Below are positions 4,617 through 29,201 of a DNA stretch of 64,000 bases, piece by piece. The stretch covers positions 78,846,016 to 78,910,015 of the forward strand of contig NC_057718.1 of assembly GCF_004010195.1 (NCBI RefSeq). The letters are read 5' to 3'. The notes below the pieces were generated by a model, which saw nothing but the letters and a program-made list of their open reading frames with translations, made no database searches and was not told where the DNA came from. The position numbers were made by a program, and so were the translations under genes. Source of the DNA: Chiloscyllium plagiosum (taxonomy: Eukaryota). The number at the start of each line of letters is the position of its first letter. Within the stretch, counting starts at the first letter, position 1.

Positions 4617-4731
4617 TTTGGTCTGTGTGGTATGTTGCTGTCCCATCTTTGACAGGTTCTTCCAGAAGCGGTTTTTGTTATGGTTCCTCTGTAGTCGACA
4701 CCATTGCCTGACTTGCATTCCAAAATAAAAG
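4617..4731 (-). CDS. PLG: Internal exon encoding the first half of kringle 1 of plasminogen or a plasminogen-like protein: (A)FILECKSGNGVDYRGTITKTASGRTCQRWDSNIPHRP(K/N)
   Basis: Strong minus-strand acceptor tttattttcttcctccttAG and donor AA|GTTAGT. The exon is 115 nt with phase 1 to 2 and no stops. The translation has the kringle pattern C-x2-GNG-x2-YRG-T-x2-KT-x-SG-x-TCQ-x-W-x4-PH. By recall it resembles plasminogen K1 ([39 protein letters not shown]) more than HGF/MST1 K1, and the size and phases match the PLG K1a exon. Orthology to PLG versus a paralog is not established. Confidence 0.9.
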
Positions 4732-5714
4732 CTAAGGAGGAAGAAAATAAAGGTTCTAGTAAATTTTGCAGCTTTTAAATAATTTTATACAGGGGATTTA
4801 AAGCAGCAACATCAATCTAAAACAATCCAGACCTTCCTTTCATTCCAACACCCTTTCTTTCCCCTTTCTTCACTGTCACTGCCCTTCATTCATAGAGTTG
4901 CATAGTTCATGCCCAATATCAGACTAAAGGGACCTTTATACAAGTATCAATGTGGCATTGATGTGGGGAGGATATTAAACAATGGAAAACATAAATGAGC
5001 CCAGTACTGTTTTCTGGCAGCAGTGAGATTGGGAATCCTTGCTAGAATCCTGGGGCCAGGTATGTTAAGTGTTGGCTAATCACTGCCTTCGCTGCATAGG
5101 AAGCTAATCATTTAACACACCAATCAGCTTGTCAAGGGCTGACCAACAAAACTACTTGGCCTTTTTCAGATTTCAACATTAGTATCCCACTCCATCAGAA
5201 GCTGCTAGACAATTAGAGAACTGCAGCTTTTAGTTCCTACAGATCATGGATCAAGGCTAATTCTACAGGTGATCCAACAGCGAGAAACTAGATTTCTTGC
5301 TTTTCACAAGATGGAGGTCACATGGCTGGCATTCAGAGGCTATCAAAAGCTACCCCTTTTTCCCAATGTCCATGCCTGTAATTACCCCAGACTGGGACAA
5401 TTGGTGGTCCCTCCCCAACATGGCAGGTGGATCGCACTAGTCAGGAAAGCAATGACTTTTCTCTCTTGCCAAGCAGGCAGGTAATCACGGAGGTGAAATG
5501 TTGAGGCCCTTAAGTAACCTTTATTGACTACTGAAGGGCTTCAATTGCCTGAATGAGTCAATAAAGTCTCCAATGGACCTTCTTGCCCACAAATAACTTA
5601 GTGAGGTGGCTAAAAGGGGGTGAGTATCTTTCAGGATGCTAATGCCTGATTACTTCCTTTTCTTACTACCTCCAGGGAGAGGAAAATTGTATCCATAGAT
5701 TTTTTTCTTCAGCT

Positions 5715-6030
5715 CTCACGGGAGGTACGTTTCACTGACATATTTGTTGCCCATCAACAATGTCCTTGAACCGAATGGTCAGCTCAATAGTTTTGTAGGT
5801 CTCAAGTCATATGTTGGTCAGAACAGGTGATACCAGTCAATTTCCATTGCTAAAGAGCATTAGTGAACCAGTTGGGTTGTTACAGCCATTAAGGATGGTT
5901 TCGTGGTCACCATTAGTGGGGTTTGTTTCAAATCCAGACTTTATTAATTAAAGTTCCAATCGAGTGGCCAAGATAAGGTTTGGGCCTAAGCATCTTAATT
6001 GAACCTGGGCCTTAGGATTATCATTCTAGC
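5715..6030 (-). mobile_element. Old tRNA-derived SINE remnant (same family as 48200-48790)
   Basis: Reverse-complement similarity to 48200-48450 (gtgaaccag.tgggtt..., cattagtgaac). Confidence 0.45.
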
Positions 6031-7322
6031 ATCATCATCAAGATTTCCAGTTCACTAGAAATAAATGTTTGTGGTATCATCACTATGAGTTTATCAGGGA
6101 AAAAATAATTTACAATTACATGCAAGCAAAGTTCTATGAACTTTATAATGTCATGGAATATCCTAAGGGAGAGCAAAACTGCAAGGTGATTGAGGAAAAC
6201 AGTCTGAAAATGTCCTCTCTAATCCCTTAGGTGATTAAAACTAGACTAAGAGACCAGTCTACTCAATGGTTATATTATAGTATTGCCCAACTCTGATTGA
6301 AGGAGATCACTACTCCAACCTGAAACAGGTCCAGTGCAGAAATTCTAATTGGCAATTTTCTTGGTGCTTTCACTATATGAAACCTGCAATTATCACACTG
6401 AGTCAAACTGTCTTGGATCCCATTGGTTAAACTGTTGGAACTAATAAATAAAAGTGTTTGTATGTTTAAAAATATTATACATTTTTTCAGTGCTCCTGTG
6501 AGTTTTTTTTGTGTATTGCAAGTTCTGGAGAATCTAAGACAATTGTAGATGTTTAGCATCACTAACCTTTGCTTGAGGGAATTCAGTGAAACAATATTCA
6601 TCACAAAAAAGATGCATTATTGTCCAGGAAAAGCAAAACTTTTTCTCATGCAACCTATACCCTTCATAAGAGTGATCCCAGGTCCCTAAACTGTAGGGTA
6701 AAATAATAACTCCACATAAACAAAACCAAGTGCGTAGATAATTGTCATTCATTTTCATGGAAGGATTGATAATAATGGAATTGAATAGCTGGTGTTTAAC
6801 AGGCCAACAAATCCAACACCCATTTTGTGCTACTTCCCAATATGAATTTCTAGCCTATTACTGCAACTTGTTTTAACTTCACCCTCTCCAGCCTGTTGCT
6901 GCTGTTCTGACTCAGTCCCAAGCCTCTGGCGTTCACATTCTCCATTTCACCATCGAATCACTAATAACAACATGGGATGAACGCTGCCTCTAGTTTCTTT
7001 CTTTGAGGATTGCTTTTGTGGGCAATTTCAAATGAATTGAGCATTTCACCATGCCCCCAGTTGCATCCCATCATTGATATAGTGCTGTAAAGCCAACCCT
7101 TGGCCTAGAATCATACACCATACCTAATAAAACAGTTATCTTTATTGTGTAAGGAAAACTCCAGTGGGAATTAAACCATAATCAATCATTTTAACTTAAG
7201 TAGGAATCAATCCAAAATAAATGATCTCAGTCAGGTGCCCTGATAACTGGTGCCCTTTATGGTGGGGTTAATATTGAGATCATGGGATTCAAGGACAAAA
7301 TGGCAGTTGGTGCATTTTAAAG

Positions 7323-7470
7323 TTAAAAATGACACAAACACCAGGTTACCTGATGTAGGGCAGCACTCTGAAAACTAGTGCTTCCAAATAAACCTATTGG
7401 ACTATAACCTGATGTTGTGTCATTTGTAACTTTGTCCACCCTAGTCCAACACCGGAACTTCTACATCACA
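7323..7470 (+). mobile_element. Miniature Penelope-like insertion, family 3, with short inverted arm and decayed hammerhead
   Basis: Direct repeat GTGCATTTTAAAG at 7310-7322 and 7471-7483. The segment 7320-7348 is the reverse complement of about 7405-7432. Degenerate core CTGATGT-AGGGCAGCACTCT-GAAAACTA-GTG at 7350-7380. Confidence 0.7.
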
Positions 7471-9076
7471 GTGCATTTTAAAGCATTTTTTTAAAAAAGA
7501 GCAGCTTCCTGGTCATTGGGTATCAACCTGGCCAGTGGGAAAGAGTCATTCATAAAATTTAAGGGATTACCATTAAGAGTTTAATGGTTGACAAGGCCCA
7601 CAACCTCTTTCAATTAAGTCTACTGTATTCACTGCTCACAATGCACCAATGTCTTTCCAACTCTGTTTCTTAAAGTTTTATTATCTCTTTACTTAAGAAG
7701 CAAAACTAAAGAGAGACAGACTTTCAGATTTGGGCAAAAGGCTTGGGGAATTTGAGTGCAATTATTAACCAGTGACGACCTGATCATGATTAAACATGAT
7801 AAAGTAGACTCCTGGTGGGCACTAAAAAGTAGCAGCATATTTCACAGAAATTAATTCAGACGAAAATCTTTCAGGGAATGGTTAGAAATGGACATTTAGA
7901 TTAATCTTGAATACTGTATTGAGAATTCTGGCAGAATCACAATTACCTTTACAGAATAAACAGGAGAGAGATCTCGGTGTTCTTTTCCATCAAAATAAAG
8001 GCCTCAATTTTTGCCACATTAGAGAATATTTCAGTTACTGGAAGAAGTTGAGAACCTAAGTCCTGCCCTCAAACACAGCATGTCTAATGGGATGAATTGT
8101 ATTTCAAGCATGTCTGGTTCCCAGAGCGCGATGGACAATTAAATGACAAACTGCCTACACAAAAATCAGATTCTGGCATTCCTTGTGACTGCAACCTGGG
8201 GTGTGAAGACTAGGCCAAGTAAAAGGTCTGTTCTTTGTGTGGTTTCGTTTGACTAGCTAGTGTCCCCCTTTAGAAAGCTGAGATACCCCTGTAGATAGGG
8301 TCTCAGACCAATTTTGGAAAGGGAAACAGGTAAATATTTATAGGGAGTCAGGTGCTGTTTGGGACTGTTACCTATGGAGAAGATTGTGTGTAAATGATGC
8401 ATAAACCCCTTGGAACCAGATAATTTGTTAACACTTCACAAGCATCAACAAGTGTCATAAAGTTTCAAGAAGTGCAAGAATGTGTCTTTAGGAATGACAG
8501 TGCTTACCTCAATAGAGTGTAGGCCCTATGTTTTTCTCCTATGTTCATGAGTAATTGTGAATACCCAATGGGTTGTCATGGTAAGTGAAAGGGGAAGACG
8601 TGTGGATAGTGGTATGTGTTAAGTTAACGTAGAGACATGAGGAACCATGGGAGATAGGTAGACAGCATTCAGTTTTATGGGCTGTCATAGATGGCCATAG
8701 AGAGTGTAAGGAGGTGACGGTGAGTAAAGGGCGATCAATGGCTGGGAGATTGCTTGATATTTCTTCCTTTTTATTGTATGTATTGTTTCTTGGAGCAATA
8801 TGTTTTGGAACCAACCAGGGAGCAGGTTGCGTAATGAGGAGAGATTAATTGATGACATCATAGCTAAGTATCCTCTCGGGAGTAGTGACCATAGTATGAT
8901 AGAATTCAAAATTCAGTTTGGGGTGAGGAATTGGAGTCCTTCAGTAGTGTTCTGGAATTAAATAAAGGAAATTATAAAGGCATGAGGACAGATTTGGCCT
9001 GAGTAGATTGGGCAGGAAGGCTAAATGGTAAGACAGCAGATGAGCAATAGTAGATGTTTAAGGACCTATTCAATTC

Positions 9077-9744
9077 AAGGTTTGTGAGAAAATTTGTAGC
9101 TCGGGTGCTCGTTGTTGTGGTTCTGTTCGCCAAGCTGGGAATTTGTGTTGCAGACATTTCGTCCCCTGTCTAGGTGACATCCTCAGTGCTTAGGAGCCTC
9201 CTGTGAAGCACTTCTGTGATCTTTCCTCCGGCATTTGTAGTGGTTTGAATCTGCCGCTTCCGGTTGTCAGTTCCAGCTGTCCGTTGCAGTGGNNNNNNNN
9301 NNNNNNNNNNNNNNNNNNNNNNNNNNNNNNNNNNNNNNNNNNNNNNNNNNNNNNNNNNNNNNNNNNNNNNNNNNNNNNNNNNNNNNNNNNNNNNNNNNNN
9401 NNNNNNNNNNNNGGTCCTTCGTTCTGGTGAGTTGTTGTCTGAGAGTGGCTGAGAGCATCCATTATCGGACAAGCCAAACAGAGAACAGCCAGGGAATTCC
9501 TAGAGGCATGGCATTCATCCACAGATTCAGTCAATAAGCACATCAACCTGGACCCAAAATACCGACCACTGCAATGGACAGCTGGAACTGACAACCGGAA
9601 GCGGCAGATTCAAACCACTACAAATGCTGGAGGAAAGATCACAGAAGCGCTTCACAGGAGGCTCCCAAGCACTGAGGATGTCACCTAGACAAGGGATGAA
9701 ACATCTGCAACACAAATTCCCAGCTCGGTGAACAGAACCACAAC
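9077..9744. mobile_element. Fold-back Penelope-like element, family 1 (inverted arms, GIY-YIG C-terminal remnant), contains an N-gap
   Basis: 9110-9292 is the reverse complement of about 9565-9744. The + arm encodes IIGQAKQRTAREFLEAWHSSTDSVNKHINLDPKY and the - arm encodes ATLRQQLTRTKD. TSD GACCTATTCAATTC (9063-9076) / GACCTACTTAATTC (9745-9758). Hammerhead motifs at 9150-9189 (-) and 9669-9708 (+). Confidence 0.85.
9293..9412. other. Assembly gap (120 N)
   Basis: Run of n inside a fold-back PLE. Confidence 1.
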
Positions 9745-10549
9745 GACCTACTTAATTCCTCACAACTGGACGATTTGGAAACTTTCAAACATAAATAAAA
9801 GGATACTGAAAAATTAATAAAAAGAGAAGGTTCAAAACGTGACTTAATCTTGGGAAATAAGGCAGGGCAGGTGACTGAGGTGTCAGTGGGGGAGCACTTT
9901 GGGGCCAGCGACCATAATTCCATTAGATTTAAAATAGTGATGGAAAAGGATAGACCAGATTGAAAAGTTGAAGTTCTAATTTGGAGAAAGGTCAATTTTG
10001 ATGGTATTAGGCAAGAACTATCAAAAGCTGATTGGGTGCAGATGATCACAGGTAAAGGGACGGCTGGAAAATGGGAAGCCTTCAGAAATAGGATAACAAG
10101 AATCCAGAGGAAGTATATTCCTGTTAGGGTGAAAAGAAAAGATGGTAGATATAGGGAAACCTGGATGACTAAAGAAATTGAGGGTTTGGTTAAGAAAAAG
10201 AAGGAAGCATATGTAAGGTATAGACATGATAGATCGAGTGAATCCTTAGACGAGTATAAAGGCAGTATGAGCATACTTAAGAGGGAAATCAGGAGGGCAA
10301 AAAGGGGACATGAGATAGTTTTGGCAAATAGAATCCAAAGGGTTTTTACAAATACATTACGAACAAAAGGTTAACTAGGGAGAGAATAGGCCCCCACAAA
10401 GATCAGCAAGACGGAGATACTAAACAAGTATTTTGCATCAGTATTTACTGTGGAAAAGGATATGGAAGATATAGAATGTAGGGAAATAGATCGTGACACC
10501 TTGCAAAATGTCCAAATTACAGAGGACGAAGGACTGGATGTCTTCAAAC

Positions 10550-10880
10550 GGGCAGCACGGTAGCACAGTGGTTAGCACTGCTGCCTCACAATGTCAGAGA
10601 CCCGGGTTCAATTCCCACCTCAGGCAACTGTCTGTGTGGAGTTTGCACATTCTCCCCGTGCCTGCGTGGGTTTTCTCCGGGTACTCTAGTTTCCTCCCAC
10701 AGTCCAAAAATGTGCAGGTTAGGTGAATTGGCCATGCTAAATTGCTTGTAGTGTTAGGTGAAGGGGTAAATGTAGGGGAATGGGTCTGGGTGAGTTGCTC
10801 TTCGGAGGGTCGGTGTGGACTAGTTGGGCCAAAGGGCCTGTTTCCACACTGTAAGTAATGTAAATAAGTAATCTAAATCT
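10550..10880 (+). mobile_element. HE1-type V-SINE
   Basis: tRNA-like head (A box tagcacagtgg, B box ggttcaattcc), V-domain (tgtgtggagtttgcacattctcccc) and a CR1-derived tail with (taatc)n. Inserted into CR1. Confidence 0.9.
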
Positions 10881-11686
10881 AAGCATAAAGGTGGATAAAT
10901 CCCCAGGACCTAATCAGGTGAACTCTAGAACTCTGTGGGAGGCTAGAGAAGTGATTGCTGGGTCTCTTGCTGAGATATTTGTATCATCGATAGTCACAGG
11001 TGAGAAGCCGGAAGACTTGGCTAAAGCGGTAGCACTGTTTACGAGGGGTGGTAAGGACAAGCCAGGGAACTATAGACCAGTGAGCCTGACCTCGGTGGTG
11101 GGCAAGTTGTCGGAGTGAATCCTGAGGGACAGGATGTACATGTATATGGAAAGGCATGGACTAATTTGGGATAGTCAACATGGTTATGTGCATGGGAAAT
11201 CATGTCTCATGAACTTGATAGAGTTTTTTGAAGAAGTAACAAAGAGAATATATGAGGGCAGAGTGGTAGATGTGATCTATATGGACTTCAGTAAGGCGTT
11301 CGACAAGGTTCCCCATGGGAGATTGGGTAACAGGGTTAGATCTCACGGAATACAGGGAGAACTTGCCATTACAGAACTGGCTCAAAGGTAGAACAGAGGG
11401 TGGTGGTGGAGGTACGGTTGGTAAGTTTGCAGATTACACCAAAATTGGAGGTGTAATGGACAGCAAAGAAGGTTACCTCAGATTACAACAGGATCTTGAC
11501 CAGATGGGCTGAGAAGTATTTACTGTGGAAAAGGATATGGAAGATATAGATTGTAGGGAAATAGATGGTGACATCTTGCAAAATGTCCAGATTACAGAGG
11601 AGGAAGTGCTGGATGTCTTGAAACAGTTTAAAATGGATAAATCCCCAGGACCTGATCATGTGTACCCGACAACTCTGTGGGAAGCT

Positions 11687-11794
11687 NNNNNNNNNNNNNN
11701 NNNNNNNNNNNNNNNNNNNNNNNNNNNNNNNNNNNNNNNNNNNNNNNNNNNNNNNNNNNNNNNNNNNNNNNNNNNNNNNNNNNNNNNNNNNNNN
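11687..11794. other. Assembly gap (108 N)
   Basis: Run of n between CR1 and PLE sequence. Confidence 1.
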
Positions 11795-11893
11795 TCAATT
11801 TTACTGCTCCTCGGATGCTGCCTGAACTGCAGTGCTCTTCCAGCACCACTAATCCAGAATCTGGTTTCCAGCATCTGCAGTCATTGTTTTTAC
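11795..11893 (+). mobile_element. Penelope-like family 2 terminal fragment adjoining the N-gap
   Basis: ctgctcctcggatgctgcctga...ttccagcaccact...cagcatctgcagtc, shared with other family 2 copies. Confidence 0.75.
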
Positions 11894-14769
11894 CAGCCTG
11901 TGACCAGTGGAGTGCCCCAAGGATTGATGCTGGGTCCATTACTTTTCGTCATTTATGTAATTGATTTGGACATGAGCATAAGAGATATAGTTAGTAAGTT
12001 TGCAGATGACACCAAAATTGGTGGTGTAGTGGACAGCGAAGAAGGTGACCTCAGAATACAATGGGATCTAAATCAGATGGACCAATGGGCTGAGGAGTGG
12101 CAGATGGAGTTTAACTTAGATAAATGCGAGATACTGCATTCAGTAAAAGCAAATCTGAGCAGGACTTATACATTTAATGGTAAGGTCCTAGGGAGTGTTG
12201 CTGAAAAATAGTCCTTGGAGTGCAGGTTCATAGTTCCTTGAAAGTAGTGTCACAGGTAGATAGGACATTGAAGATGGCGTTTGGTATGCTTTCCTTTATT
12301 GGTCAGAGTATTGAGTCCAGGAGTTGGGAGGTCATGTTGTGGCTGTATACAAGACATTGTTTAGGCCACTTTTGGAGTATTGCATGCAATTCTGGTCTCC
12401 TTCCTATCGGAAAGATGTTGCGAAACCTGAAAGGGTTCAGAAAAGATTTACAAGGGTGTTGCCAGGGTTGGAGGATTTGAGCTATAGGGAGAAGCTGAAC
12501 AGGCTGTGGCTGTTTTCCCTGGAGCTTCGGAGGTTGACGGGTGACCTTATAGAGGTTAACAAAATTATGAGGGGCATGGATAGGGTAAATAGGCAATGTC
12601 TTATCCCTGGGGTCAGGGAGTCCAGAACTAGAGGGCATAGGTTTAAGGTGAGATGGGAAAGATATAAAAGAGACCTACTGGGCAACTTTTTGACACAGAG
12701 GGTGGTACGTGTATGGAATGAGCTGCCAGAGGAAGTGGTGAAGGCTGGTACAATTGCAACATTTAAAAAGCATCTGGATGGGTATATGAATAGGAAGGGT
12801 TTGGAGGGATATGGGCCGGGTGCTGGCAGGTGGAACTAGATTGGGTTGGGATATCTGGTCGGCATGGACAGGTTGGACTGAAGGGTCTGTTTTCATGCTG
12901 TACATCTTTATGACTCTATGACATTACGACAGAAAACAAGTACAAAATATCAAAAAGGATAGCAAAAACTTCAATAGGCATATGAAAGGGAAGAGAGTCG
13001 TTAAAGTGTATGTTGGTCCCTTGGAAGCTGAAATCACAGGGTTAGTAGTGAGGAACAATGAGATGGCAGAGATGCTGAATCATGCTTTGCCTCAGTTTTC
13101 ACAGTGGAGGGTAATAGTATCATTCCTATTGGAACAGACAAGTTCTTGAGGCTATAAAAAAGGTAGATCTTAGAACAATCAACATAGACAGGGAAAAGGT
13201 ACTCAGCAAACTATTAGGACTGAGAGTAGACAAGTCCCCTCGGGCCTGATGGCCTACATCCTTGGGTATTAAAGGAAGTGGTGGCAGAGACAGTGGATTC
13301 CTTAGCTGCGATATTTCAAACTTCCTTGGACATGGGAAAGGTTCCAGTGGATTGGGAAATGGCTAATGTAATGCCCTTATTTAAAAAGTGACAGGGAGGC
13401 AAAATGTGGGAAATTACAGACAGGTTAGTTTAACATCAGTTGTTGGGAAATTGTTAGAATCAATTATCAGGAAAGCAATATCAGGACATTTGGAAAGTCA
13501 AAATGCTATCCATCAGTGTCAATGTGGTTTTATGAAGGGCAAATCATGTTTGACTAATTTGCTAGAGTTCTTCCAAGACATAACAAGCAAAGACGGTAAT
13601 GGGGATCTTGTAGATGTAATACATCTGGTCTTCTGGAAGGCGTTTGATAAGGTGCTGCACAAAAGATTGGATCTTATGGGTTTAGAGGTAATTAATTAGC
13701 TTGGATAGATAACTGGCTGATGGACAGAAAACAGAGAGTTAGGATAAGCTTTTTTTTCTGGATGACAAGATGTAATTAGTGGGGTGGCCACAGGGTTCAG
13801 TCCTTGGACCCCAGCTATTTACAATCTGTATTAATGACTTGGATACAGGGATAGCAGGCTCTATAGCAAAATTTGCGGATGACACAGAAATAGACAGGAT
13901 GGTAAATTGGAATGAGGAAATAAGAACTTTACAAATGGATATAGGTTAGAAGAGTGGGCCAAAATGTGGCAGATGGATTTTAACATGGATTAGTGCTTGG
14001 ATTTAAAAATTGGAAAGGCAACCTATTATCTCAATGAGGAGGGACTTTGGGGCAGAGGGATCTAGGTTTACTCATTCATGAGTCACAGAAAACTAGCATG
14101 CAGGCACAGCAGATAATAAATAAAGCGAATGAAATAGAATATAAAAGTAAGAAAGTATTGTTGCAAGTATACAAGGTATTAGTGAGACTGCACCTGGAGT
14201 ATTATGAACTGTTTCGGTCCCTTTGTTTTTGAGGAAAGATGTAGTGGCATTGGAGGCAGTTCAGAGGAGGTTCACTAGATTGATCCCAGAGATGAGGGGT
14301 TTGTCTTATGAAGAAAGATTGAACAGTTTAGGCCTATCCTGTCTGGAATTTACAAGAATGAGGGGAGATCAAATTGAGGTATTCCAGATGATGAAAGAAG
14401 TGGATAAAATAGACGCGGAGCGGATGCTTCCTCTGCAGGCCATCCTAGGACAAGAGATCATAGTCTTAGGATAAAGGGTACCAAATTCAAAATAGAGTTG
14501 AGGAGAAACTACTTCTCCCAAAGGGCTGTGAATCTGTGGAATTCGCTACCCCAAAAGTGTGGTGGATGCTGGGACAGTGAGTAAATTTAAGGAGAATTTA
14601 GACAGATTTTTTTATTGGTAATGGGTTGAAGCTTTAAGGATAGAAAGTAGGAAAATGGGAGCAAGGAACATATCAGCCATAATAGAATGGTGGAGCAGAC
14701 TTGATGGGCCGAATTGCCTAATTCTGCTCCTATATTTTATGAACTTTAGAGAGGCAAGGTATCCACAGT

Positions 14770-15120
14770 ATGGTGGCACAGTAGTTAGCACCCCTGCCTC
14801 ACAGTGCCAGGGACCTAGATTCGATTTCATCCTCAGGCAATTACGTGTGGAGTTCGAACATTCTCCCCAAGTCTATGTGGGTTTCCGTTGAATGTTCTGG
14901 TTTTCTCCCATAGCCCAAAGATTTGCAGGTTAAGTGAATTGGCCATGCTAAATTGCCATAACATCCATGGATGTGTAGGCTAGGTGGATTAGCCATGGTA
15001 AATGAGGGGTTACAGGGATTGGGGGGTGTACAAGGGTTTGGGTCGGATGCTCTTCAGAGGATCAGTGCACACTCAATGGACTGGATGGCCTCTATCAGCA
15101 CCATGGGAATTCTATTCTAT
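14770..15120 (+). mobile_element. HE1-type V-SINE (older)
   Basis: Same head, V-domain and tail as 10550-10880, more diverged. Confidence 0.85.
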
Positions 15121-20030: not shown

Positions 20031-20296
20031 GCTTCCTATTTTGAGATTTAACTATGTTTCTGGAAGCTGTATAAGCCATTCCCTTTATCTAGTGCAATAT
20101 TTAAGTTTTTTGTTAAGCATGTTGATTCAATTTTTCATTTTGATATTTGTACCTTAGTGTATATCTGTTGTAGGTCTCCCAGTATTTCTTTAAATATTGG
20201 CCACATGACATTGCACCACTTCCTGTGATGTACCCTGAAGCCTTTGTATTTACCACTTTACACCACATCTGAACCCAAGTCTCTGTACTCACCGTG

Positions 20297-20625
20297 TGGG
20301 CAGCATGGTGGCACAGTGGTTAGCACTGCTGCCTCACAGTGCCTGAGACCTGGGTTCAATTCCCGCCTCAGGCGACTGACTGTGTGGAGTTTGCACGTTC
20401 TCCTCGTGTCTGTGTGGGTTTCCTCCGGGTGCTCCGGTTTCCTCCCACAGTCCAAAAATGTTCATGTCAGGTGAATTGGCCATGCTAAATTGCCCGTAGT
20501 GTTAGGTAAGAGGTAAATGTAGGGGTATGGGTGGGTTGCACTTCAGCGGGTCAGTGTGGGGCTTGTTGGGCCGAAGGGCCTGTTTCCACACTGTAATGTA
20601 ATGCAATCTAATCTAATCTAATCTA
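20297..20625 (+). mobile_element. HE1-type V-SINE (full length, relatively young)
   Basis: Intact A/B boxes, V-domain and (aatct)n tail. Confidence 0.92.
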
Positions 20626-20939
20626 CCTGTTAAGTTGCATTATTCCCAACTAAAGTCACTGCCTTCCATTTCTTTTATATAATGAACCACAATGGCAATT
20701 TTACTGGTCCAACCTAAGGTGTTCTCAGCTCCTTTGAAGGAAACAGGAATTCAAGTGCTCTTTGTGGTGTACAGTAGGAGAATCAACAGATGACACTAGT
20801 TCAGCAATCATGTCATTGTCTGGATCCCATATTGATTGCAACATTTCTGGTCTGTCTGACTCTGCTGATGAATGCTTCCATTGTGACGAAGTGTACATGC
20901 AGCACTGGCCAGACTACAGCTGAAAAACTGTGGACAGTT

Positions 20940-21445
20940 TTAATCTGCTTATCTAAGTAAAGATATTGGAGGCAGTCCAAAGAGGTCCATTAGATTGATC
21001 TGGGTATGGAGGGGTTGAGTAGGTTGTGCTTGTACTCATTAGCGTTTAGGAGAATGTGAAAATAGTTGATTGTTAGAGGTCTTGATAGGGTCAATGTCCA
21101 GAGGTTACTTTCTTTTGTAGGAGAGTCTAGGACCAGAGGGCATAATCTCAGAATAAGGAGGTGACCATTTAAGACAAAGATCAGAAGGATATTTTCTTTT
21201 AGAGGATGATGAGTCAGAGGAATTCTTTACCACAGAAGGCTGGTGATGCTGGGATCATTAAGTATTTTCAAGACTGAGATAGACAGATTTCTAATCAGTA
21301 GAGAATCAAGGATTATGGGGAAAAGGCAGAAAGATGGAGTCGAGTATTACCAGGTTAGTCGTGATCTCAATAAGTGGCAGAGTGGACTCTATGGGCTGAA
21401 TGGCCTATTTCTGCTCCTACAATTTGTGGTTTTAAAGTCTTATGG
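20940..21445 (+). mobile_element. CR1 3' fragment
   Basis: FKTEIDRFLIS motif and 3' UTR gggctgaatggcctatttctgctccta. Confidence 0.8.
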
Positions 21446-21939
21446 AAACTAGTGCCACAGTTCTATTGCACTGTGGCATTTTCAATTTAAATGAGGTAAG
21501 ACAGTGGATGTAGTATCTGTTCTACCATTTGTCCAAAATAAGTTTTGTATCAATTCCAGATTGCTTCTCTCAATTCAAGCTCTGCATGCTTCACTACATT
21601 TGTCACAGTTCCACATCTGACTAGTACAGTACTCATTCTTTTATTCCCTCACATTTATCAAATCACCATCTCATACATGTGGCTTTAGTAAACATGGGAT
21701 TCTAGAAAGTTGATTTCTCAGTCCTCCTGTGAGGACTTCACATGACTCAATGATTTTGGAGTGGAATTGAATGATAGCTCAAAATTGCAAGTTGAATGTT
21801 ATTGTTCTTTAGCAATGCTTTCCTCTTTCAGCTTCACAGTTTGAGGGTATCTTGGTGAGTTAGTAATAGAATAAATCCATATGATGTTGTGAGCTCTTTA
21901 AAGTATGTATTGGTAAACTATGGTCCAATGTCTGAGATT

Positions 21940-22065
21940 CCAAAAGAAGGACTTATGCCTGAAACGTCGATTCTCCTGCTCCTCAGATGCTGCCTGGCCT
22001 GCTGTGTTTTTCCAGCATCACATTTTTCAACTCTGGTCTCTAGTATCTGTAGTCCTCACTTTCTC
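21940..22065 (+). mobile_element. ~126-bp miniature Penelope family 2 insertion (decayed hammerhead + tail)
   Basis: Exact 15-bp TSD CCAATGTCTGAGATT at 21925-21939 and 22066-22080. Confidence 0.85.
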
Positions 22066-22094
22066 CCAATGTCTGAGATTACAAAGTAACTGTC

Positions 22095-23010
22095 ATGGAG
22101 TCATAGAGTCATGCAGCATGGAAGCAGACTCATCCAACTTATCCGTGCCGACCAAATATACTCAACTGAACTAGTCCCATTTGTCTGTGTTTGGCTCATA
22201 TCCCTCTAAACCTTTCCTATTCATGTACCTGTCAAAATGTTTTTTAAATGTTGTAACTGTAATTGTAACTGCCTCTACCCCACCTCCTCTGACAGCTCAT
22301 TCCATACACTTACCACCTGCTGTGTGAAAAAGTTGTCTTTTAGGTCGCTGTTAAATATTATCCCCTCTCCTTAAATCTCTAGTTTTGGTCTCCCTTACCC
22401 TTGAAAAGAAATGTTGTCTATTCACCCCCATGATTTTATAAACCTATATAAGGTCACCCCTCAGCCTCCGATGTTCCAGAGAATAAAATCGTAGCCTATC
22501 CAGCCTCTCCTAATAACTCAAACCCTCCAGTCCTGGAAACATCTTTGTAAATTTGAAATATTCTAAATATCTCTTTCAGTGATATAATCAATGTTTCAAA
22601 ATGTGATTCTGAAGTTGTTTGACTTCAATTTATCTTAAGTGGTCATAGAGTCAAACAGCATGGAAACAGACCACGGAAACAGTTCAACCAATCCATGCTG
22701 ACCATAATCCCAAACTAAACCACTCTCATCTGCCTGCATATGGTCCACATCCCTTCAAACATTTTTCATTCATGCACTTATCCAATGTCTTTTAAACATT
22801 GTAACTGTACCTGCATCCACCACTTCCTCTGGAAATTCATTCCACATACGAACCACTCTCTGTTTTAAAAAGTTGCCCTCGTGTCTTTTTAAAATTTTTC
22901 TCTTTTCTTCTTGAAAATATGCCCCCTGTCTTGAAATCACACACACTATGGAAAAGACACTTGCCATTCACCTTATCTATACCTCTCATTATTGTATAAT
23001 CCTCTATATC
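22095..23010 (-). mobile_element. Two tandem CR1 3' fragments (22095-22555 and 22643-23010)
   Basis: Each has a gtcatagagtca tail and QRVVRMWNEFPEEVV-type sequence on the minus strand. Confidence 0.85.
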
Positions 23011-23724
23011 AAAAAGATTTTGCCTCAGTGTTTATGGATGTTGATCCCAAGTTGTTCCTGTAGTTTTGATGGAAAAAAAGGACATCAATGATTGTCTTGT
23101 CTCCTGATGATGAATTGTACAGTTTACAGTTTAGTCAAACTGGTTATCTCTGAAATAGCCCTGCAAGTGCAATCTTAGGAATCTTGTCTCGGGGAAGAAA
23201 CAAAACTTGCTGGACGCAAACAATTATTGGGGAGTCCATGATGGAGAGGTTAATGAGGTAATTCCAATACTAGATCTTTGTGGGTGAAGAACTAGCATGC
23301 CTTGTGAACGTGACAAAAGTTTATTGAGATTTGTGACAATGTCATTAACATAAGAGATGCTGAGAAATCTGTGAGACTTGTCCTGGCTGCATTTGCTATT
23401 TGAAGTGCTTTGTGCAGCATTTTATCTCAGGTTGTCTGTTATTCACTTTACTCATATTAACTCTGGACGCTATAGTATATTTTATATATTGTAAATTATT
23501 TCACAGTTCTAACTTTGTACAGTCAACTTTATTTCATTTGTTCAAAACCATTGAATAGTGTGACTTTACTCTACTATTTCTTCAATGGCAGAGAAAACGA
23601 TGCCACTAAATTTTCAAGCCTGCCAAGTGACCATTCTGAATGCGTCATGTTGCTGCACATCCACCTCCAAGACCAGCAGCATTCAATTGTCATGCTCAGA
23701 CAATGAATGCTAACCCAGTTGATA

Positions 23725-24005
23725 AACATAAACAGGAAGCAAAAGCAGACCATTCAGCAACTGCAGCCTACTCCGCCATTCAATAAGATCACGGTTGATC
23801 TAATTTTAACCTCAAATCCATATTTGCATTTATCCCCGATAAACTTTCACACCTTTATTTACCAAGAATCTGTCTACTTTTGTCTTAAAAATACGCAAGG
23901 ACTCTTTTTGTATCACCTTTTCAGGAAGACAGTTTCAAATGTTCAAGGCCTCTGAGAGAAAAATAATTACCTAATCTGTTTTAAATGTGCAATCTTTCAC
24001 TTTTG
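23725..24005 (-). mobile_element. Old CR1 3' fragment
   Basis: aacataaacaggaagcaaaagcagaccattcagc tail resembles the other minus-strand CR1 ends. Confidence 0.6.
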
Positions 24006-24009
24006 TAGC

Positions 24010-24720
24010 ATGACAAAGGTAAGTTCTACACAGATCTCTGCGAACTCATCTAGAATTCTCCTCCTAAGGATAAAGTTGTCATCCTCAGTGATTTGAACTC
24101 AAGAACTGACCATTGCAACCTGGCAGGAAGGGAATACTCAGAAACAATTCGTTTGAAAACTGCAATAAAAATGGATGGAAACTCTTAGAATTTTATGCAG
24201 AAAGACAATTGTCCATAACCAACTCCTTTTGGCAGCAAAGAAAAATTATTTCTACACCATATTGTTCAAAGCACCAGCATCTGCTGGTGTACTTGTGCGA
24301 CCTAAAGGATATCCTACATACTGCTGAGATAACTAATGCTGACCGTCATACAGACCAATGCTTACTCACTCAAAGATGAAGTTCCATCTCAAGCCTAAGT
24401 CCAAGAACAGATCTCAAGACAACCCATCAAAGAAATTTGAGTCAATAACCTGCAAACCTCATCTTGCAGAGACAGATGTCAAGCAATCGAACAGACCAGA
24501 TTAAAATGCCCTGATTTCACTGCTAATTCCACTTCTGGAGAACTCTGGGGACACAGCTCCAGTACTGAGTACTTTAGATTAGATCATTAGACACAGTACC
24601 AAGAGGAACAGGAACTGATTTGATGAAAATAACAAGGGAATTCAAGATGCGCTAGTAATAAAAAATATCAGCTCATCATCAGGTTCACGTTTTTCAGCCA
24701 GTTAGCCAAGAGAAAAAGTC
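24010..24720 (+). mobile_element. RTE-clade LINE fragment (AP endonuclease C-terminal half and linker)
   Basis: DKVVILSDLNSR, NKNGWKLLEFYAERQLSITNSF, TDQCLL (TDH motif) and N*FDEN (WFDEN) remnants. Confidence 0.7.
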
Positions 24721-27700
24721 ATATTAAAAACCAAATACCGCAGATGTTGGAAATCTCAAACATGGAAAATGCTGGAGGATGATCATGTAACATCGTGTCA
24801 TTTCCTGTGATGTATATTTTGTCTCCTAAGTATATATAACCATGCTAAAACTTATATTTCACTGTGCATGTGTATATAGGAGTGGGGGATTGAAGAGAGA
24901 AGAAAGCAATGGGCAATGAGTGGAGAGGTGGGGGGGAGGGAATATTGTATGGATTTGTTAATTTCTTTATTGGTTAGAATACCTGCACATAGCCCTCATG
25001 GAGAATGCCCTCAATAATGCCTCACAAAAAATGCTAAGGTGTGCAAAGTAAGTAAATCCTTATTCTTTTTCTGTGGCCATTTCTGAAATAAACTGTACAA
25101 GATATCCATAATGCAGTTGAATAGTGCCCCAACTTCTAAGAATTGCTGGGGTATATATTCTCTCCAGTTGCTATGAACTGTGGGGAAATTCCACATGCAC
25201 TGTCAATGGAGTTACATCATCAAAATTCTCATCTCTGTAGTGGAGCAATGAGAATATTGTTGACTCAGCTCTGCACCTTCCCTGTAAATCTAGCCAACAA
25301 CTGTTATATTTTCATTAACAATTCTTGCTTCTGAATCAGGAGGTTATCTGTTCAAAGCCCATACAAGTGATTTCAGCATATGGGCAAGGCTGATCTTCAG
25401 AGTCACTCTGACAGAATGCTGCACTGTCAGGAGTATTATCTTTCAGATGAAACATCCAACCAAGATCACATCAGCTGTGCCTCATAGCATAGCCTCTAAG
25501 TTATGGTCACCTTAAGAATTTACCCAGGCTATCCTTTATTTGCAGGTATCCTTGTTTTCAAAGTGGTCACTATAATACAAAAGATCCCAAACATCTTCAA
25601 GGCCCATTTCAAATCTCTCTCATTGGAGTAGAGTGCAACTTCTGTAATGAACTGTGTCTCTCAGTTCTACTTGCCAGCTTTCAGGCAGTCACAGAACAAA
25701 TAGAAAGGGAAATGTAATAATAGGTTGCACTAGTGCCTTCTAGGTTCTGAAAACAAATCTTAGGGGTGGCTTATTGTTTGGAAAGTATGGCAGAGATTGT
25801 ATTACAAGAGAAACAAACCTTTCTGCTGAAACAGCAAGGCTGTGTTGGACAATTGATTGATGGCTAGGATTCACAGTTCTACCAATCACTTTAGTGAGTA
25901 GCAGAGATGATAAGACCTGAGGCCACAATCCACCTCCACTGTGTAAAATGAAAGTTTCTCAAAGAAGCAGATTGACCATCAGATGCCAAGGGAAATAATT
26001 CAATGGCAGGAACATAGGGGAAAGAAGATGGCAGTAACTTCTGAAAACGTGCGTGGGTGCAGCACTGACACTGGAAAAGATACTCTTTTTCACTGTTACA
26101 AATCCTTTCCTCAATTTGAGAGATAAGTGGGTTTAGGATAATGACTAAGTCTATTATGCTAATAAAAAGTTACTACAGCTGTGAAGTCAGGGCCGGGTGG
26201 AACTAGGACTGAGTCTGAAGGTTTCTAGGAATGCTCTCTCCTCTGATTTATGTCTATATTGTGATTAATTTCAAAGACAGTTGCTCAACATTATGAGGAC
26301 AGAATCACTCTGTCTTTTGTATGATCTCAGCTAGTGGTAACAATAGAGGACCCTGCGCCCAGTAAAACTTTCCGCTAATCCCAATTAATGCAGGAACAGT
26401 CGAATCAGTCGGCTGCGCAAGAATCCTCAGAGGAGGCCCAAAGCAGTAAACCTCACATGTGATTAGCCAATGTCATACATGGAGATGAGCTCTGAAATCA
26501 ATCAGTGCGATGGTAATTACGCAGCATAATCAGGGAATGCTTAGAAAGCAAGCAGGCTCCCAGTCTGGGCTGCAGGGAGTCACAAACAGCCACACACAGA
26601 CCATAACATCAATTCAATGCAAGTGCAGCTCTCAAAAATGCAAAATGCCCTTTCTTTACCTGACTTACTGCTCAGCACATGATAGCCCAAATTGCACCAC
26701 TTGTTTAGTCACTACTGCATCACCTCTAGGCTTGTCCATAAACTGGAGAGGTCCCACTATGTCGTATCAGTAAAGTACTGAGCAAGATTATTTCAAACTG
26801 GAGAATTAACATAGCAACTGCTACCTATGCAGTAATCCTGGAACCCAGCGATGCATCCTTTAATAGCCATCAGCTGAGAATGCCTGCGGCCATTACTTCA
26901 TCTTTTTGTTTTTGTGCCAAATGGCCATCTTTCAGCTAACTCTCCCCATTCATACAGAGCAAGACATGGTAATCAGACAGTGCACTCTGATACAGTAGTG
27001 GCCACGGAATCCTTACAACTTTGGCTCGACCAGTTAAAGCTGCAAGGTACCTGTTTCTTCACAACTCCAAGACGTCTCTGTCCACAAAATAGATGACTCT
27101 AATGCCCAGGTTTGGACCATAGGCATCTTCACTAATGGCTCACCACTGCTTTCAAATTAGATATGGGTATAGCAGTCTCTGTCTTGTCCTATTTGACTCC
27201 TTGGCTCATTTGAAGTTTCTGAATATTCACTTCCTCAGACCAGGAATTATGACTTTAAAGGGACATGTTGACACCCTTTCCCATAGAAGCAGGGAAATAT
27301 TGAAAACCTTTATATTGTCCATCATCAGGAATTTCAGTTAAAAAGCCTGCATTAATCTTCACATTCTCTCCAAGATCAATAACCTAACAGCACACTCTGC
27401 ATCAATTTCACAAAGGGTTCCCTGTTTTGATTGCTGGCTGGGGCAAGTCCACTCAGTGTACCATAGTATAGTGGTCAGTTGGCTTCAATTGGGGCTACTG
27501 GGGCTAACTTTCAATGGGAGTTATTTGCCTAACATCCATTGTGGCACTAGAAGCCCACCTGCATTTAGGATAGATCCATGCAAGCATTTATTCTTGGAGA
27601 TAGAGTAGTTTCTCTGCACTGAGGAGTGGACATTGTGCTCGTCGAAAAGCTGATTTTCGTCACATGTTACGGCTGTCTCGTACTCACCTGCACGTCTCCT

Positions 27701-27859
27701 GTTTAAATTTGTAAAAGGATTGATGCAACACAGGATTTCCATAGCTTGCAATGTGTGAATGCCTTTTATTTCAGAATGCCTTTTGTATGTGTTATGTTAG
27801 TCCTTCAACACATTTTTTGTCTGTTTTTTGGACATATCCATTCATACAGATTTCATCAT

Positions 27860-28840
27860 ATTTTGAAGAGAAGGAGAGATCCCCCAGTGCCTAGGCAATA
27901 TTTACCCCTCCACCACCATCACTAGAACAAATGAGTCATGTTATTATTACATTACTTTTTGTGAGAGGTGTCCGTGTTGAAATTGGCTGCCATGTTTTCA
28001 ATAGCACAAACTAGTATATGAAAACAATGTCTGCAGAATGTTGGTTGTGAAGCACTTCTAGAGATTTTGTCAGAATGTGGAAAGACATGGCAGCCAATTT
28101 GCACATACCAGTACCATGAAATCTTTTACATCTTTTGTTCTGTGCACACATCTCTAAACAATGGAAGAAAAGTGACAACATTTTCAATCAACCTGTCTGA
28201 AGAAACATAGAGAAGTCACGAGATGAGAAAATGTTATTGAACAAAGATGTTGAGTAATGTTTAGCACTACCACCACCACTCCCCCTCTTCGATTCTGATG
28301 ACAGATTCAAGTGTCATGTGTTGAAGAACTTTTAATCTTCATGATCAGAAGTCATAAACTGTAAATGTGGGAAATGCACAATAGACTAGTCTGTATAGTC
28401 TCAGTACTGGCAAGAGATCTACAGTCTAAACACAACCCTGTCTTCTCTCTTAAAGAAAGATTTGTATGTGTGTTGTGTCTTTCATGACATCAGATACAAA
28501 GCTGCTGCAACATTACACAAGAGAATTCAATGAAGTATTTTTGAAACGTAGGCACAGTTGCACTGTTAGCTCCTGCAAACAGCAATAAATGGCCAGGGAA
28601 TCCATTTTGTTGATATTCACAATTTGCCAGGACACAAGAGACAAACTCATTCACTCTTCTTCAAAATTAATGGCATGGAATCACTTACCAACTTGAAAGA
28701 CAACATAGGTCATGTGTTTATACAAAAAACTAATTTTCTAGTATTGTCTAGGTATTGCACTGTACTATTAGCCTAGACTTGAATTCTCTGGAGCTAATCC
28801 ATAACAATTTGAGTCCCAGGGCACTGAACCACAGCTGATT
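27860..28840. mobile_element. Cluster of old DeuSINE-like remnants in both orientations
   Basis: aattggctgcc on + (27981) and ggcagccaattt on - (28089), caatatttacccctc, and a minus copy at about 28450-28840. Confidence 0.55.
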
Positions 28841-29134
28841 TTGCACATATGGAAGTATATGTCTTTCCAATATTTTTTAACTTTTTATTCAATATAGCAA
28901 AAACAAAGCTGCAAGAAATTGGGTTTCTATGTTAGATTTTGCTGCTCATTTTCAATACTGACTGCTGGGTATCTTGATTTGAATGCAGAGTAAATCCAGA
29001 TCCCTTCTGTGTTTTATATAATCATCCAATATATCAGTTTGCATTGCCCAAAACTATATACATTGCAGTAATATGATTCATTTATTACACTATGTATGCA
29101 CTAACCATCCAAACCAGTTATTAGTTTCACTTAC

Positions 29135-29201
29135 CAAAAGATGGCAAAATCAGAAAAAGAAGCCCCGTAAACACAAGCGTTTTAATCCTGATTTGAACCA
29201 T
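29135..29201 (-). CDS. PLG: Candidate first coding exon (signal peptide) of the same plasminogen-family gene: MVQIRIKTLVFTGLLFLILPSF + 1 nt
   Basis: ATG in strong Kozak context (aaaATGG). Basic N-region (RIK) followed by a hydrophobic core (LVFTGLLFLIL). Ends in phase 1 at a consensus donor G|GTAAGT, as plasminogen exon 1 does. It is on the same strand as and upstream of the kringle exon, in unique sequence, next to hepatic TF motifs. Linkage to the kringle exon is inferred. Confidence 0.7.

What the first reader, a model, noticed from the sequence alone, without database searches (positions are those of the whole stretch)
4617..29201. Plasminogen-family gene that appears to lack the PAN/activation-peptide exons
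Seen: the signal-peptide exon ends in phase 1 with G and the kringle-1a exon begins with CT. Direct splicing gives GCT and the open frame MVQIRIKTLVFTGLLFLILPSFA-FILECKSGNGVDYRG, with a good (-3,-1) signal peptidase site (P-S-F-A). Reading the non-repeat parts of the 24.4 kb between them, I found no PAN-like exon (no DDY..T.GA, C-x3-C..F.CR or L(F/Y)EKK with splice sites). Established: PLG, HGF and MST1 have two PAN exons between the signal exon and K1. The PAN domain holds Glu-plasminogen closed, and its removal gives the readily activated Lys-plasminogen starting about K-V-Y-L-S-E-C. Apo(a) is a PAN-less plasminogen derivative. Inference: this may be a shark paralog whose mature N-terminus (FILEC) matches Lys-plasminogen/angiostatin, an independent PAN loss.
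Basis: partly seen in the sequence, partly recalled or inferred. Interest (0 to 1): 0.8.

Follow-up and report, generated by a model that had tools for sequence, protein, structure and literature searches.

The report
Shark plasminogen copy without PAN domain
This bamboo-shark gene is a second copy of the clot-dissolving protein plasminogen that has lost its N-terminal PAN domain, its activation site and two catalytic residues while keeping five intact kringles, so it looks like a non-enzymatic, apolipoprotein(a)-like binding protein and not a more easily activated plasminogen.

Summary
On the minus strand, a signal-peptide exon (29201-29135, donor G|GTAAGT) and a kringle-1a exon (4731-4617, acceptor ...CCTTAG|CT) join in frame, and no intact PAN exon lies in the 24,403-bp intron between them.

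The window's gene (gene A) is the upstream member of a tandem pair. Gene B, about 170 kb downstream, is a canonical plasminogen with two PAN exons of 136 and 107 nt, the activation Arg, and His, Asp and Ser.

Both splice sites are lost, there are three 1-base indels, and there is a stop at a Cys codon. PAN-b is absent from the intron and from the rest of the 3.56-Gb assembly. Both N gaps lie inside repeats.

Gene A otherwise has an intact 17-exon, 729-codon frame. It keeps five kringles and all 44 non-PAN cysteines. Its activation site reads Ser-Ile instead of Arg-Ile, and His57 is Gln, Asp189 is Gly and Ser195 is Thr.

A gene model from a second Chiloscyllium species has the same junction.

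The "independent PAN loss in a paralog" reading is supported. The "readily activated Lys-plasminogen" reading is not.

I obtained no transcript evidence.

The parts
29135..29201 (-). Exon 1 of gene A: start codon and signal peptide (22 codons plus 1 base), donor G|GTAAGT
   Evidence: It is 52/67 identical to gene B's first exon with no indels. The same hydrophobic core appears in the model from the second Chiloscyllium species, P0033.
29202..29300 (-). Conserved upstream stretch (5'UTR or proximal promoter)
   Evidence: It is 79/94 (84%) identical to the stretch upstream of gene B, against 67-73% in the neighbouring introns.
28909..29043 (-). Dead PAN-a pseudo-exon, homologous to gene B's 136-nt PAN-a exon
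   Evidence: 102/134 identical with 3 single-base indels. The acceptor AG is now AT and the donor GT is now CT. A TAA follows after 9 codons in the incoming frame. One Cys codon is now TGA and another is TCT. tblastn finds it in two frames with stops. A genome-wide search finds it at E 0.02 with 1 stop.
25123..28371 (-). Interval where PAN-b should lie, bracketed by collinear anchors to gene B; no PAN-b homology
   Evidence: The anchors are B 78693978-78693771 = win 28608-28372 and B 78692253-78692215 = win 25122-25084. Nothing inside matches. The interval holds no N and is mostly single-copy in the genome.
4732..29134 (-). Intron 1 of gene A (24,403 nt)
   Evidence: About 17 kb of it (7967-24948) corresponds to only about 260 bp of gene B's intron.
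4617..4731 (-). Exon 2 of gene A: first half of kringle 1, starting at phase 1
   Evidence: Kringle E 2.7e-9. It is 81% identical to gene B's K1a exon, and the acceptor is conserved.
9293..9412 (.). N gap 1 (120 N), inside an inverted-repeat element
   Evidence: the two flanks are reverse complements of each other (about 94% identical). The same element borders at least three other N runs in the 314-kb region and the N run that ends just before the window.
11687..11794 (.). N gap 2 (108 N), inside multi-copy repeats
   Evidence: the flanks have 17 and 63 matches in the 314-kb region. One search shows the same repeat family in gene B's introns.
11119..18296 (+). Fragments of retroelements on the opposite strand that fill much of the intron
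   Evidence: RVT_1 at 13385-13696 (E 5e-9) and 17294-17566 (E 3.5e-9), RT_RNaseH at 18000-18296 (E 5e-19), and weak RVT_1 at 11119-11388.

Best explanation
The window holds the 5' end of a tandem duplicate of shark plasminogen (gene A). It has turned from a zymogen into a secreted, non-enzymatic five-kringle protein.

Shown here:
- Gene A lost the PAN domain at the DNA level. PAN-b was deleted. PAN-a was left as a spliceless, frame-shifted relic 92 bp downstream of the signal exon. The phase-1 signal exon can therefore only join the phase-1 kringle-1a exon and still keep the frame.
- The rest of the gene is an intact 17-exon, 729-codon frame with canonical splice sites and five complete kringles. 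It keeps every non-PAN cysteine of plasminogen.
- The activation Arg, His57, Asp189 and Ser195 are all replaced.
- A canonical plasminogen (gene B) sits about 170 kb downstream and presumably does the fibrinolytic work.

Inferred from established plasminogen biology (recalled):
- Without PAN the kringles are not folded back into the closed form, so their lysine-binding sites would be permanently exposed. The acidic pairs of these sites are kept in K1, K2, K4 and K5.
- With no cleavage site and no catalytic Ser or His, the protein most likely acts as a lysine-site ligand or decoy on fibrin, cell surfaces or other plasminogen receptors. This is the way apo(a) is thought to interfere with plasminogen.

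My confidence is about 0.75 for the structural claim (a PAN-less, non-catalytic paralog under constraint) and about 0.35 for the decoy mechanism.
For: Tandem pair: 20 half-kringle hits on C9 fall into two sets of 10, and tblastn maps two full genes.

Gene B model: 19 exons and 797 aa with PAN..CFGR-IIGG.., TAKHC, NDIALL and GDSGGP.

Gene A model: 17 exons, 2190 nt, no stop, all introns GT-AG. It reads ..CFGS-IVGG.., TAKQC (CAG where gene B has CAC), GNDIALL..VGNCQGDTGGP...

PAN-a relic. PAN-b is absent from the intron and from the assembly: only gene B's copy scored, out of 2 candidates.

Both gaps lie in repeats, and they sit in a 17-kb block downstream of where PAN-b belongs.

Constraint on gene A:
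- dN/dS against gene B is 0.349 over 714 codons.
- 44 of 44 non-PAN Cys columns are kept.
- Unique amino-acid changes run only 1.0-2.2 times those of gene B, depending on the outgroup.
- The kringle region differs from the second species' ortholog at 20/478 sites, against 29/450 for the gene B pair.
- The neutral relic carries 3 indels in 135 nt, while the 2190-nt CDS carries no frameshift.

Independent model: P0033 (hypothetical protein chiPu_0005082, Chiloscyllium punctatum, 96% identical in K1b) joins the signal peptide directly to kringle 1 and also has Ser at the activation site.

P0121 (named 'plasminogen-like isoform X3 [Chiloscyllium plagiosum]' by its source) is identical to my model from kringle 3b to the stop.
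Against: There is no transcript evidence. Use of exon 1, and the 29135-to-4731 junction, rest on sequence logic and on a predicted model from a sister species.

A second in-frame AG acceptor 24 bases upstream of the K1a acceptor would add 8 residues. I prefer the acceptor at 4731 because it is the one conserved in gene B and used in P0033.

The database holds no full-length protein for this gene from this species. The only one found, P0121, has a frame-shifted N-terminus.

Thr at position 195 is chemically close to Ser, so the loss of catalysis is a sequence inference.

The lysine-binding or decoy role is untested.

dN/dS of 0.35 is a pairwise average that includes the constrained gene B lineage.
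Confidence: 0.75

Rival explanations
1. Gene A is an unprocessed pseudogene in early decay. Loss of PAN, the activation site and the catalytic residues would be the first lesions of a dying duplicate with no function.
For: Four functional features of plasminogen are gone. The lineage is somewhat faster than gene B, with a stem branch of 0.20 against 0.09-0.10. No transcript evidence was obtained. The only same-species database model is aberrant at its N-terminus.
Against: The 2190-nt frame is intact over 17 exons, and every splice site is canonical. All 44 non-PAN cysteines are kept. dN/dS is 0.349. Between the two Chiloscyllium species the kringle region is at least as conserved as that of true plasminogen: 20/478 against 29/450 differences. 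The truly neutral PAN-a relic in the same gene collected 3 indels, stops and two lost splice sites in 135 nt. The upstream region is 84% conserved.
Confidence: 0.1
2. Gene A is an ordinary PAN-bearing plasminogen-like gene, and its PAN exons are hidden in the assembly gaps (9293-9412, 11687-11794) or in an unplaced contig.
For: Two N runs lie in the intron. The assembly has 101,977 contigs. PLG-like paralogs of Cetorhinus and Mustelus keep PAN.
Against: PAN-a is present and dead at its expected place just after exon 1. An intact PAN domain therefore cannot be encoded, and PAN-b alone (107 nt) would break the frame. By collinear anchors PAN-b belongs at 25.1-28.4 kb, where there is no N. Both gaps lie inside repeats in a retroelement-rich block. 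Genome-wide searches with gene B's PAN-a and PAN-b peptides find only gene B and the relic. The PAN hit on unplaced contig C82986 is a copy of an apple-domain gene on C1.
Confidence: 0.03
3. Exon 1 at 29135-29201 is itself a relic, and the gene is transcribed from another, unrecognised 5' exon. The mature N-terminus would then differ from the predicted one.
For: There are no RNA data. The start codon differs from that of other sharks: the usual Met is Thr here, and an ATG 7 codons upstream is used.
Against: Exon 1 keeps an ATG, an open frame, a hydrophobic core and a donor site identical to gene B's over about 17 bases, while the adjacent PAN-a decayed. The upstream ATG-containing N-terminus is also seen in the Mustelus PLG-like protein P0048. 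P0033 uses the same exon. tblastn found no other PLG-like 5' exon in the 314-kb region at E<=1e-3.
Confidence: 0.07

Closest known systems
Canonical plasminogen (the tandem neighbour, gene B; orthologs in other sharks)
   Same: Same exon-phase plan, five kringles, a trypsin-like C-terminal domain, and 73% amino-acid identity over 714 aligned codons. Gene A sits inside the shark PLG clade.
   Different: Gene A has no PAN domain. The activation Arg is Ser, His57 is Gln, Asp189 is Gly and Ser195 is Thr, and 2 residues are deleted in the ..SWGLGC.. loop.
Apolipoprotein(a) of primates, with a convergent form in hedgehog
   Same: It is a plasminogen-derived tandem duplicate that lacks PAN. Its protease-like domain cannot be activated by tPA or uPA (passage in PMC7016456). 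From recall, the human activation Arg is also replaced by Ser.
   Different: Apo(a) dropped kringles 1-3, amplified kringle IV, keeps the Ser-His-Asp triad (PMC7016456) and has an unpaired Cys for apoB. Gene A keeps single copies of K1-K5, lost two triad residues and has no extra Cys: 44 Cys, all at plasminogen positions.
Coelacanth PAN-less plasminogen (Chana-Munoz et al. 2019, PMC6337849, section 6 read)
   Same: It is reported to have lost the PAN domain and two of the three catalytic residues, which is the same combination seen here.
   Different: The paper describes it as the PLG orthologue itself, with a second copy that has one kringle. Here a canonical PLG is retained next door. I did not see the coelacanth sequences; Additional file 1, Fig. 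S3 was not read.
HGF and MSP/MST1 (plasminogen-related growth factors)
   Same: They are kringle proteins with a dead serine-protease domain. From recall, HGF also has Gln in place of the catalytic His.
   Different: They have PAN plus four kringles and keep an activation cleavage site. Two separate 4-kringle loci that fit them exist on C18 and C23. Gene A is not in that lineage.
'Plasminogen-like' paralogs of Cetorhinus, Carcharodon and Mustelus (P0050, P0123, P0048)
   Same: In Cetorhinus the paralog shares a contig with PLG. All three have lost Asp189 and Ser195, and they share some residues with gene A in the last two exons.
   Different: They keep PAN, the activation Arg and His57. Common origin is unresolved. 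A single clade of all PLG-like genes is rejected on full length (p-AU 0.001) but not on the protease domain alone (p-AU 0.32).

Membership tests
Plasminogen (functional zymogen) | N-terminal PAN/apple domain encoded by two exons between the signal exon and kringle 1 | tested here: not met
   PAN-a is a dead relic. PAN-b is absent.
Plasminogen (functional zymogen) | Five kringles, each with six cysteines | tested here: met
   Ten half-kringle exons. 44 of 44 non-PAN Cys columns are kept.
Plasminogen (functional zymogen) | Arg-Val/Ile activation bond ahead of ..VGG.. | tested here: not met
   Ser-Ile in gene A and in P0033. Arg in gene B and in the 10 other aligned PLG and PLG-like rows that cover this site, counting P0123, P0124 and P0126 read.
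Plasminogen (functional zymogen) | Catalytic triad His57-Asp102-Ser195 and Asp189 in the S1 pocket | tested here: not met
   Gene A has Gln, Asp, Thr and Gly at these positions. Residue numbering is recalled chymotrypsin numbering.
Plasminogen (functional zymogen) | Placement within the vertebrate PLG clade | tested here: met
   Gene A lies inside the galeomorph shark PLG group (99/99), sister to P0033 (100/100).
Apolipoprotein(a)-type derivative | Plasminogen duplicate lacking PAN, with a protease domain that cannot be activated | tested here: met
   at sequence level only. Resistance to tPA and uPA cannot be tested here.
Apolipoprotein(a)-type derivative | Loss of K1-K3 and expansion of kringle IV-type repeats | tested here: not met
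   There is one copy each of K1-K5, and each is most similar to the matching kringle of PLG.
Apolipoprotein(a)-type derivative | Unpaired cysteine for a disulfide link to apoB | tested here: not met
   No Cys beyond those aligned to plasminogen's.
HGF/MSP growth factors | PAN plus four kringles, retained activation site, separate HGF/MST1 lineage | tested here: not met
   Gene A has five kringles, no PAN and no Arg. It lies in the PLG clade. Four-kringle loci lie elsewhere, on C18 and C23.
Secreted protein | Cleavable N-terminal signal peptide | tested here: inconclusive
   The N-terminus has basic residues, then an 11-residue window with mean Kyte-Doolittle hydropathy 2.9, then small residues at -3 and -1 (Ser, Ala) before Phe. 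No signal-peptide predictor was available.

The most novel reading that the evidence does not exclude
Bamboo sharks evolved their own apo(a)-like molecule: a liver-secreted, permanently 'open' five-kringle plasminogen mimic. It can be neither activated nor cut substrates, and it competes with true plasminogen for lysine sites on fibrin and cells. This would give elasmobranchs a built-in brake on fibrinolysis or an angiostatin-like regulator. It would have arisen independently of the primate, hedgehog and coelacanth cases, with (from recall of the human apo(a) sequence) the same Arg-to-Ser change at the activation site as human apo(a).
Probability: 0.3. Interest if true: 0.7.

Novelty: new member of a known kind. 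Interest (0 to 1): 0.5.

Why it matters
Plasminogen has repeatedly given rise to non-proteolytic kringle proteins: HGF, MSP, apo(a) twice, and a PAN-less form in coelacanths. Here both stages sit side by side in one genome, the canonical gene and its derivative. A fossil PAN exon shows how the domain was lost, by exon deletion plus exon death while the 1-1 phase was kept.

If the protein is made, it is a natural PAN-less, uncleavable plasminogen. That could test ideas about how PAN keeps plasminogen closed, and about what apo(a)-like decoys do in an animal without Lp(a).

For annotation, the available database models of this gene are truncated or frame-shifted at one end.

In the papers I searched I found no description of a shark plasminogen duplication. 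Those searches cover only the held open-access library.

Tried and rejected
1. RNA evidence. The look-up of sequencing runs listed no holder on record as RNA ('no RNA holder listed'). Run X1 is only guessed to be RNA and held 0.51 of the sampled words. I do not use this as evidence.
No reads were laid, so neither the splice junction nor the gaps could be checked this way.
3. A search for short database proteins (40-130 aa) carrying kringle 1a, meant to catch transcript fragments that show what precedes it, found 1 candidate and no hit.
4. My first protein search failed because the query was too short, at 37 aa. I used the kringle-1b exon instead.
5. Pfam PAN_1 over the whole genome gave nothing on C9, not even gene B's PAN exons. 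That tool is therefore too weak for split PAN exons, and I relied on tblastn with shark PAN sequences.
6. I considered that the PAN hit on unplaced contig C82986 was the missing exon. It is a copy of an apple-domain gene on C1.
7. I tried to date the duplication. The full-length tree puts gene A weakly with the Mustelus PLG-like protein (82/94). A clade of all PLG-like genes is rejected (p-AU 0.001). A duplication limited to the orectolobiform lineage is not rejected (p-AU 0.154). The protease-only tree is a polytomy. The timing stays open, and gene conversion between tandem copies may blur it.
8. An alternative acceptor 24 bases upstream of the K1a acceptor, picked by my scoring script, was set aside. 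It is not the site conserved in gene B or used in P0033.
9. The search of earlier findings returned nothing for this place.


Full report
**Where the window lies.** The window is G000:C9:78846016-78910015 in a 3.56-Gb assembly of 101,977 contigs. A database protein that is 100% identical to the gene's last exon is named by its source 'plasminogen-like isoform X3 [Chiloscyllium plagiosum]'. It lies on a contig of 105,880,166 bases, which is the length of C9.

**The observation.**
- On the minus strand the first exon runs from ATG at 29201 to 29135 and ends ...CTTTTG|GTAAGT, leaving one base over.
- The kringle-1a exon runs from 4731 to 4617. It is preceded by a pyrimidine tract and TAG, and followed by GTTAGT.
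- Joined, the two give a GCT codon and an open frame. The Pfam Kringle model matches the 4553-4774 ORF (E 2.7e-9).

**Two tandem genes.**
- A Kringle-model scan of the genome gives 66 matches from 93 scored candidates. Twenty are on C9, on the minus strand, in two sets of ten half-kringle exons.
- tblastn with shark plasminogen proteins maps two complete genes.
- Gene A begins in the window and ends at C9:78756023. Gene B runs from C9:78694580 to 78613228.
- I fetched 250 kb downstream of the window and built both models in scripts.

**Gene B is a canonical plasminogen.**
- It has 19 coding exons and 797 residues.
- After the signal exon come PAN-a (136 nt, phase 1 to 2) and PAN-b (107 nt, phase 2 to 1).
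- It then has five kringles, the activation site ..CFGR-IIGG.., and TAKHC, NDIALL and GDSGGP.
- Because 136 + 107 = 243, removing both PAN exons keeps the frame. Removing only one does not.

**Gene A keeps an intact frame but has lost four functional features.**
- It has 17 coding exons, 2190 nt and 729 residues, no internal stop, and GT-AG at every intron.
- Aligned with eleven other vertebrate plasminogens and shark PLG-like proteins, it keeps K1-K5. It keeps the acidic pairs ..NPD-x-D/E.. in K1, K2, K4 and K5.
- All 44 cysteine columns outside PAN are kept. The only mouse-plasminogen Cys columns lacking Cys in gene A are the four in PAN.
- The activation site reads Ser-Ile. The His57 codon is CAG where gene B has CAC. 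..VDSCQGDSGGP.. has become ..VGNCQGDTGGP... Two residues are missing from ..SWGLGC...
- By sequence it cannot be cleaved at the usual bond and lacks two triad residues and the S1 Asp. Residue numbering and roles are recalled textbook knowledge.

**What happened to PAN-a.**
- blastn of gene B's 5' region against gene A's shows a 754-nt collinear match (73%). It covers the upstream region, exon 1, the short intron and PAN-a.
- In the alignment, the stretch homologous to PAN-a is window 29043-28909. It is 102/134 identical with three single-base indels.
- The acceptor AG is now AT and the donor GT is now CT. A TAA comes nine codons in. One Cys codon is now TGA and another TCT.
- tblastn sees it as two frame-shifted pieces with stops.
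- For comparison, the upstream 94 nt are 84% identical and exon 1 is 52/67 identical with no indel. The flanking introns are 67-73% identical.

**What happened to PAN-b.**
- Collinear anchors place it between window 28372 and 25122. That interval has no N, is mostly single-copy in the genome, and shows no similarity to PAN-b by blastn or tblastn.
- The output was cut: I saw all rows for 4 of 10 queries and part of a fifth.
- A genome-wide search with gene B's PAN-b peptide scored only gene B's exon, plus one chance-level match (E 3.1), from 2 candidates.
- The PAN-a peptide scored gene B, the relic (E 0.02, one stop) and one chance-level match, from 7 candidates.
- A decayed 107-nt exon at the relic's level of identity should have been detectable. 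I therefore read PAN-b as deleted. This is an inference.

**The gaps.**
- The intron segment 7967-24948 corresponds to about 260 bp in gene B and holds reverse-transcriptase and RNase H fragments.
- Both N runs lie in this block, downstream of where PAN-b belongs.
- The flanks of gap 1 are inverted copies of each other, and the same element borders other N runs nearby. The flanks of gap 2 have 17 and 63 copies in the 314-kb region.
- Even if a PAN-b exon were hidden there, the dead PAN-a means no PAN domain could be encoded.

**Is gene A alive?**
- Pairwise dN/dS against gene B is 0.349 (dN 0.159, dS 0.457, 714 codons).
- Using four outgroups, gene A's unique replacements in the kringles are 36-46, against 20-35 for gene B. 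In the protease domain they are 33-41 against 19-27.
- Against the sister species' models, gene A's kringle region differs at 20/478 sites and gene B's at 29/450. Part of the gene B figure may be model error.
- The relic shows what neutrality looks like in this gene: 3 indels in 135 nt. At that rate about 49 indels would be expected in 2190 nt, and the CDS has no frameshift.
- This argues for purifying selection. It does not prove expression.

**Independent models.**
- P0033 (hypothetical protein chiPu_0005082 of Chiloscyllium punctatum) is 96% identical in K1b. It runs from the signal peptide straight into kringle 1 and has Ser at the activation site.
- Its neighbour on the same contig, P0034, is the PAN-bearing ortholog of gene B.
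- These are predicted models, and I do not know what evidence they used.
- P0121 matches my gene A model exactly from K3b to the stop, but it has a frame-shifted N-terminus.

**Relatives and timing.**
- In a 20-sequence maximum-likelihood tree, gene A and P0033 pair at 100/100 on a long stem (0.20). They lie inside the galeomorph shark PLG group (99/99) and sit weakly beside the Mustelus PLG-like protein (82/94).
- Gene B groups with P0034 and whale-shark PLG at 100/100.
- PLG-like proteins of Cetorhinus, Carcharodon and Mustelus have also lost Ser195 and Asp189, but they keep PAN, Arg and His57.
- Whether all of these descend from one old duplication is unresolved. One clade of all PLG-like genes is rejected on full length (p-AU 0.001). 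A duplication restricted to the orectolobiform lineage is not rejected (p-AU 0.154). The protease domain alone decides nothing.
- In either case, PAN loss, Arg-to-Ser and His-to-Gln are seen only in the two Chiloscyllium sequences among those examined.

**Literature.**
- Three searches found no paper describing a shark plasminogen duplicate.
- Chana-Munoz et al. [quoted passage not shown] That section names no duplication in sharks.
- A review (PMC7016456; passages only) states that apo(a) has a protease-like domain that tPA and uPA cannot activate despite an intact triad, and an unpaired Cys for apoB.
- The Arg-to-Ser change in human apo(a), the role of PAN in holding plasminogen closed, and HGF's Gln-for-His are recalled and were not checked here.

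**Verdict.**
- The structural observation is right, and it is strengthened by the fossil PAN-a exon.
- The gene is best described as a PAN-less, non-activatable, non-catalytic plasminogen paralog under constraint. Its closest likeness is to the coelacanth form and, in working principle, to apo(a).
- It is not a Lys-plasminogen-like, readily activated zymogen.
- Transcript evidence is the missing piece.

Noticed in passing
window 9146-9747, window 1-193, and C9:78756747-78759824 and 78820048-78820373: One inverted-repeat element family borders at least four N runs in the 314-kb region, as well as the N run that ends just before the window. It looks like a systematic cause of assembly breaks.
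   Followed up: partly
window 29181-29201 and L024 (C9:78694580-78694601): The two tandem genes use different start codons. Gene A keeps an upstream ATG and has Thr where other sharks have the initiator Met. Gene B has GTG at the upstream site and starts at the downstream ATG. The Mustelus PLG-like protein has both Met residues.
   Followed up: partly
proteins P0048, P0050, P0123 (not in the window): 'Plasminogen-like' paralogs of Mustelus, Cetorhinus and Carcharodon have lost the catalytic Ser (now Asn or Gly) and the Asp189 region, but they keep PAN, the activation Arg and His57. Dead-protease plasminogen copies thus seem widespread in galeomorph sharks.
   Followed up: partly
G000:C1:77283213-77315894 and C82986:4253-4387 (L001-L008): There is a run of at least seven PAN/apple-domain exons on C1, probably a kallikrein or factor XI-like gene or array. 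An unplaced contig carries a stretch whose translation is identical over the part compared.
   Followed up: partly
G000:C18:62712783-62747837 and C23:28893004-28915867: Two loci each carry four kringles, and the C18 locus is preceded by a PAN hit. They fit HGF and MST1. They were not modelled.
   Followed up: no
protein P0121: The database model 'plasminogen-like isoform X3' reads the K2b and K3a exons in the wrong frame at its N-terminus and lacks K1 and K2. P0033 and P0034 skip protease exons. All available models of these two genes are imperfect.
   Followed up: yes
window 53548-53913 (-) and 58993-59580 (+): Weak integrase-core and reverse-transcriptase matches lie upstream of the gene. 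No other gene was recognised among the 24 ORFs of 110 aa or more in 29.3-64 kb.
   Followed up: partly
G000:C16:61779290-61779526 and 61829012-61829248: Two single-exon full kringles 50 kb apart score identically (99.6 bits). This is either a recent duplication or an assembly duplicate.
   Followed up: no
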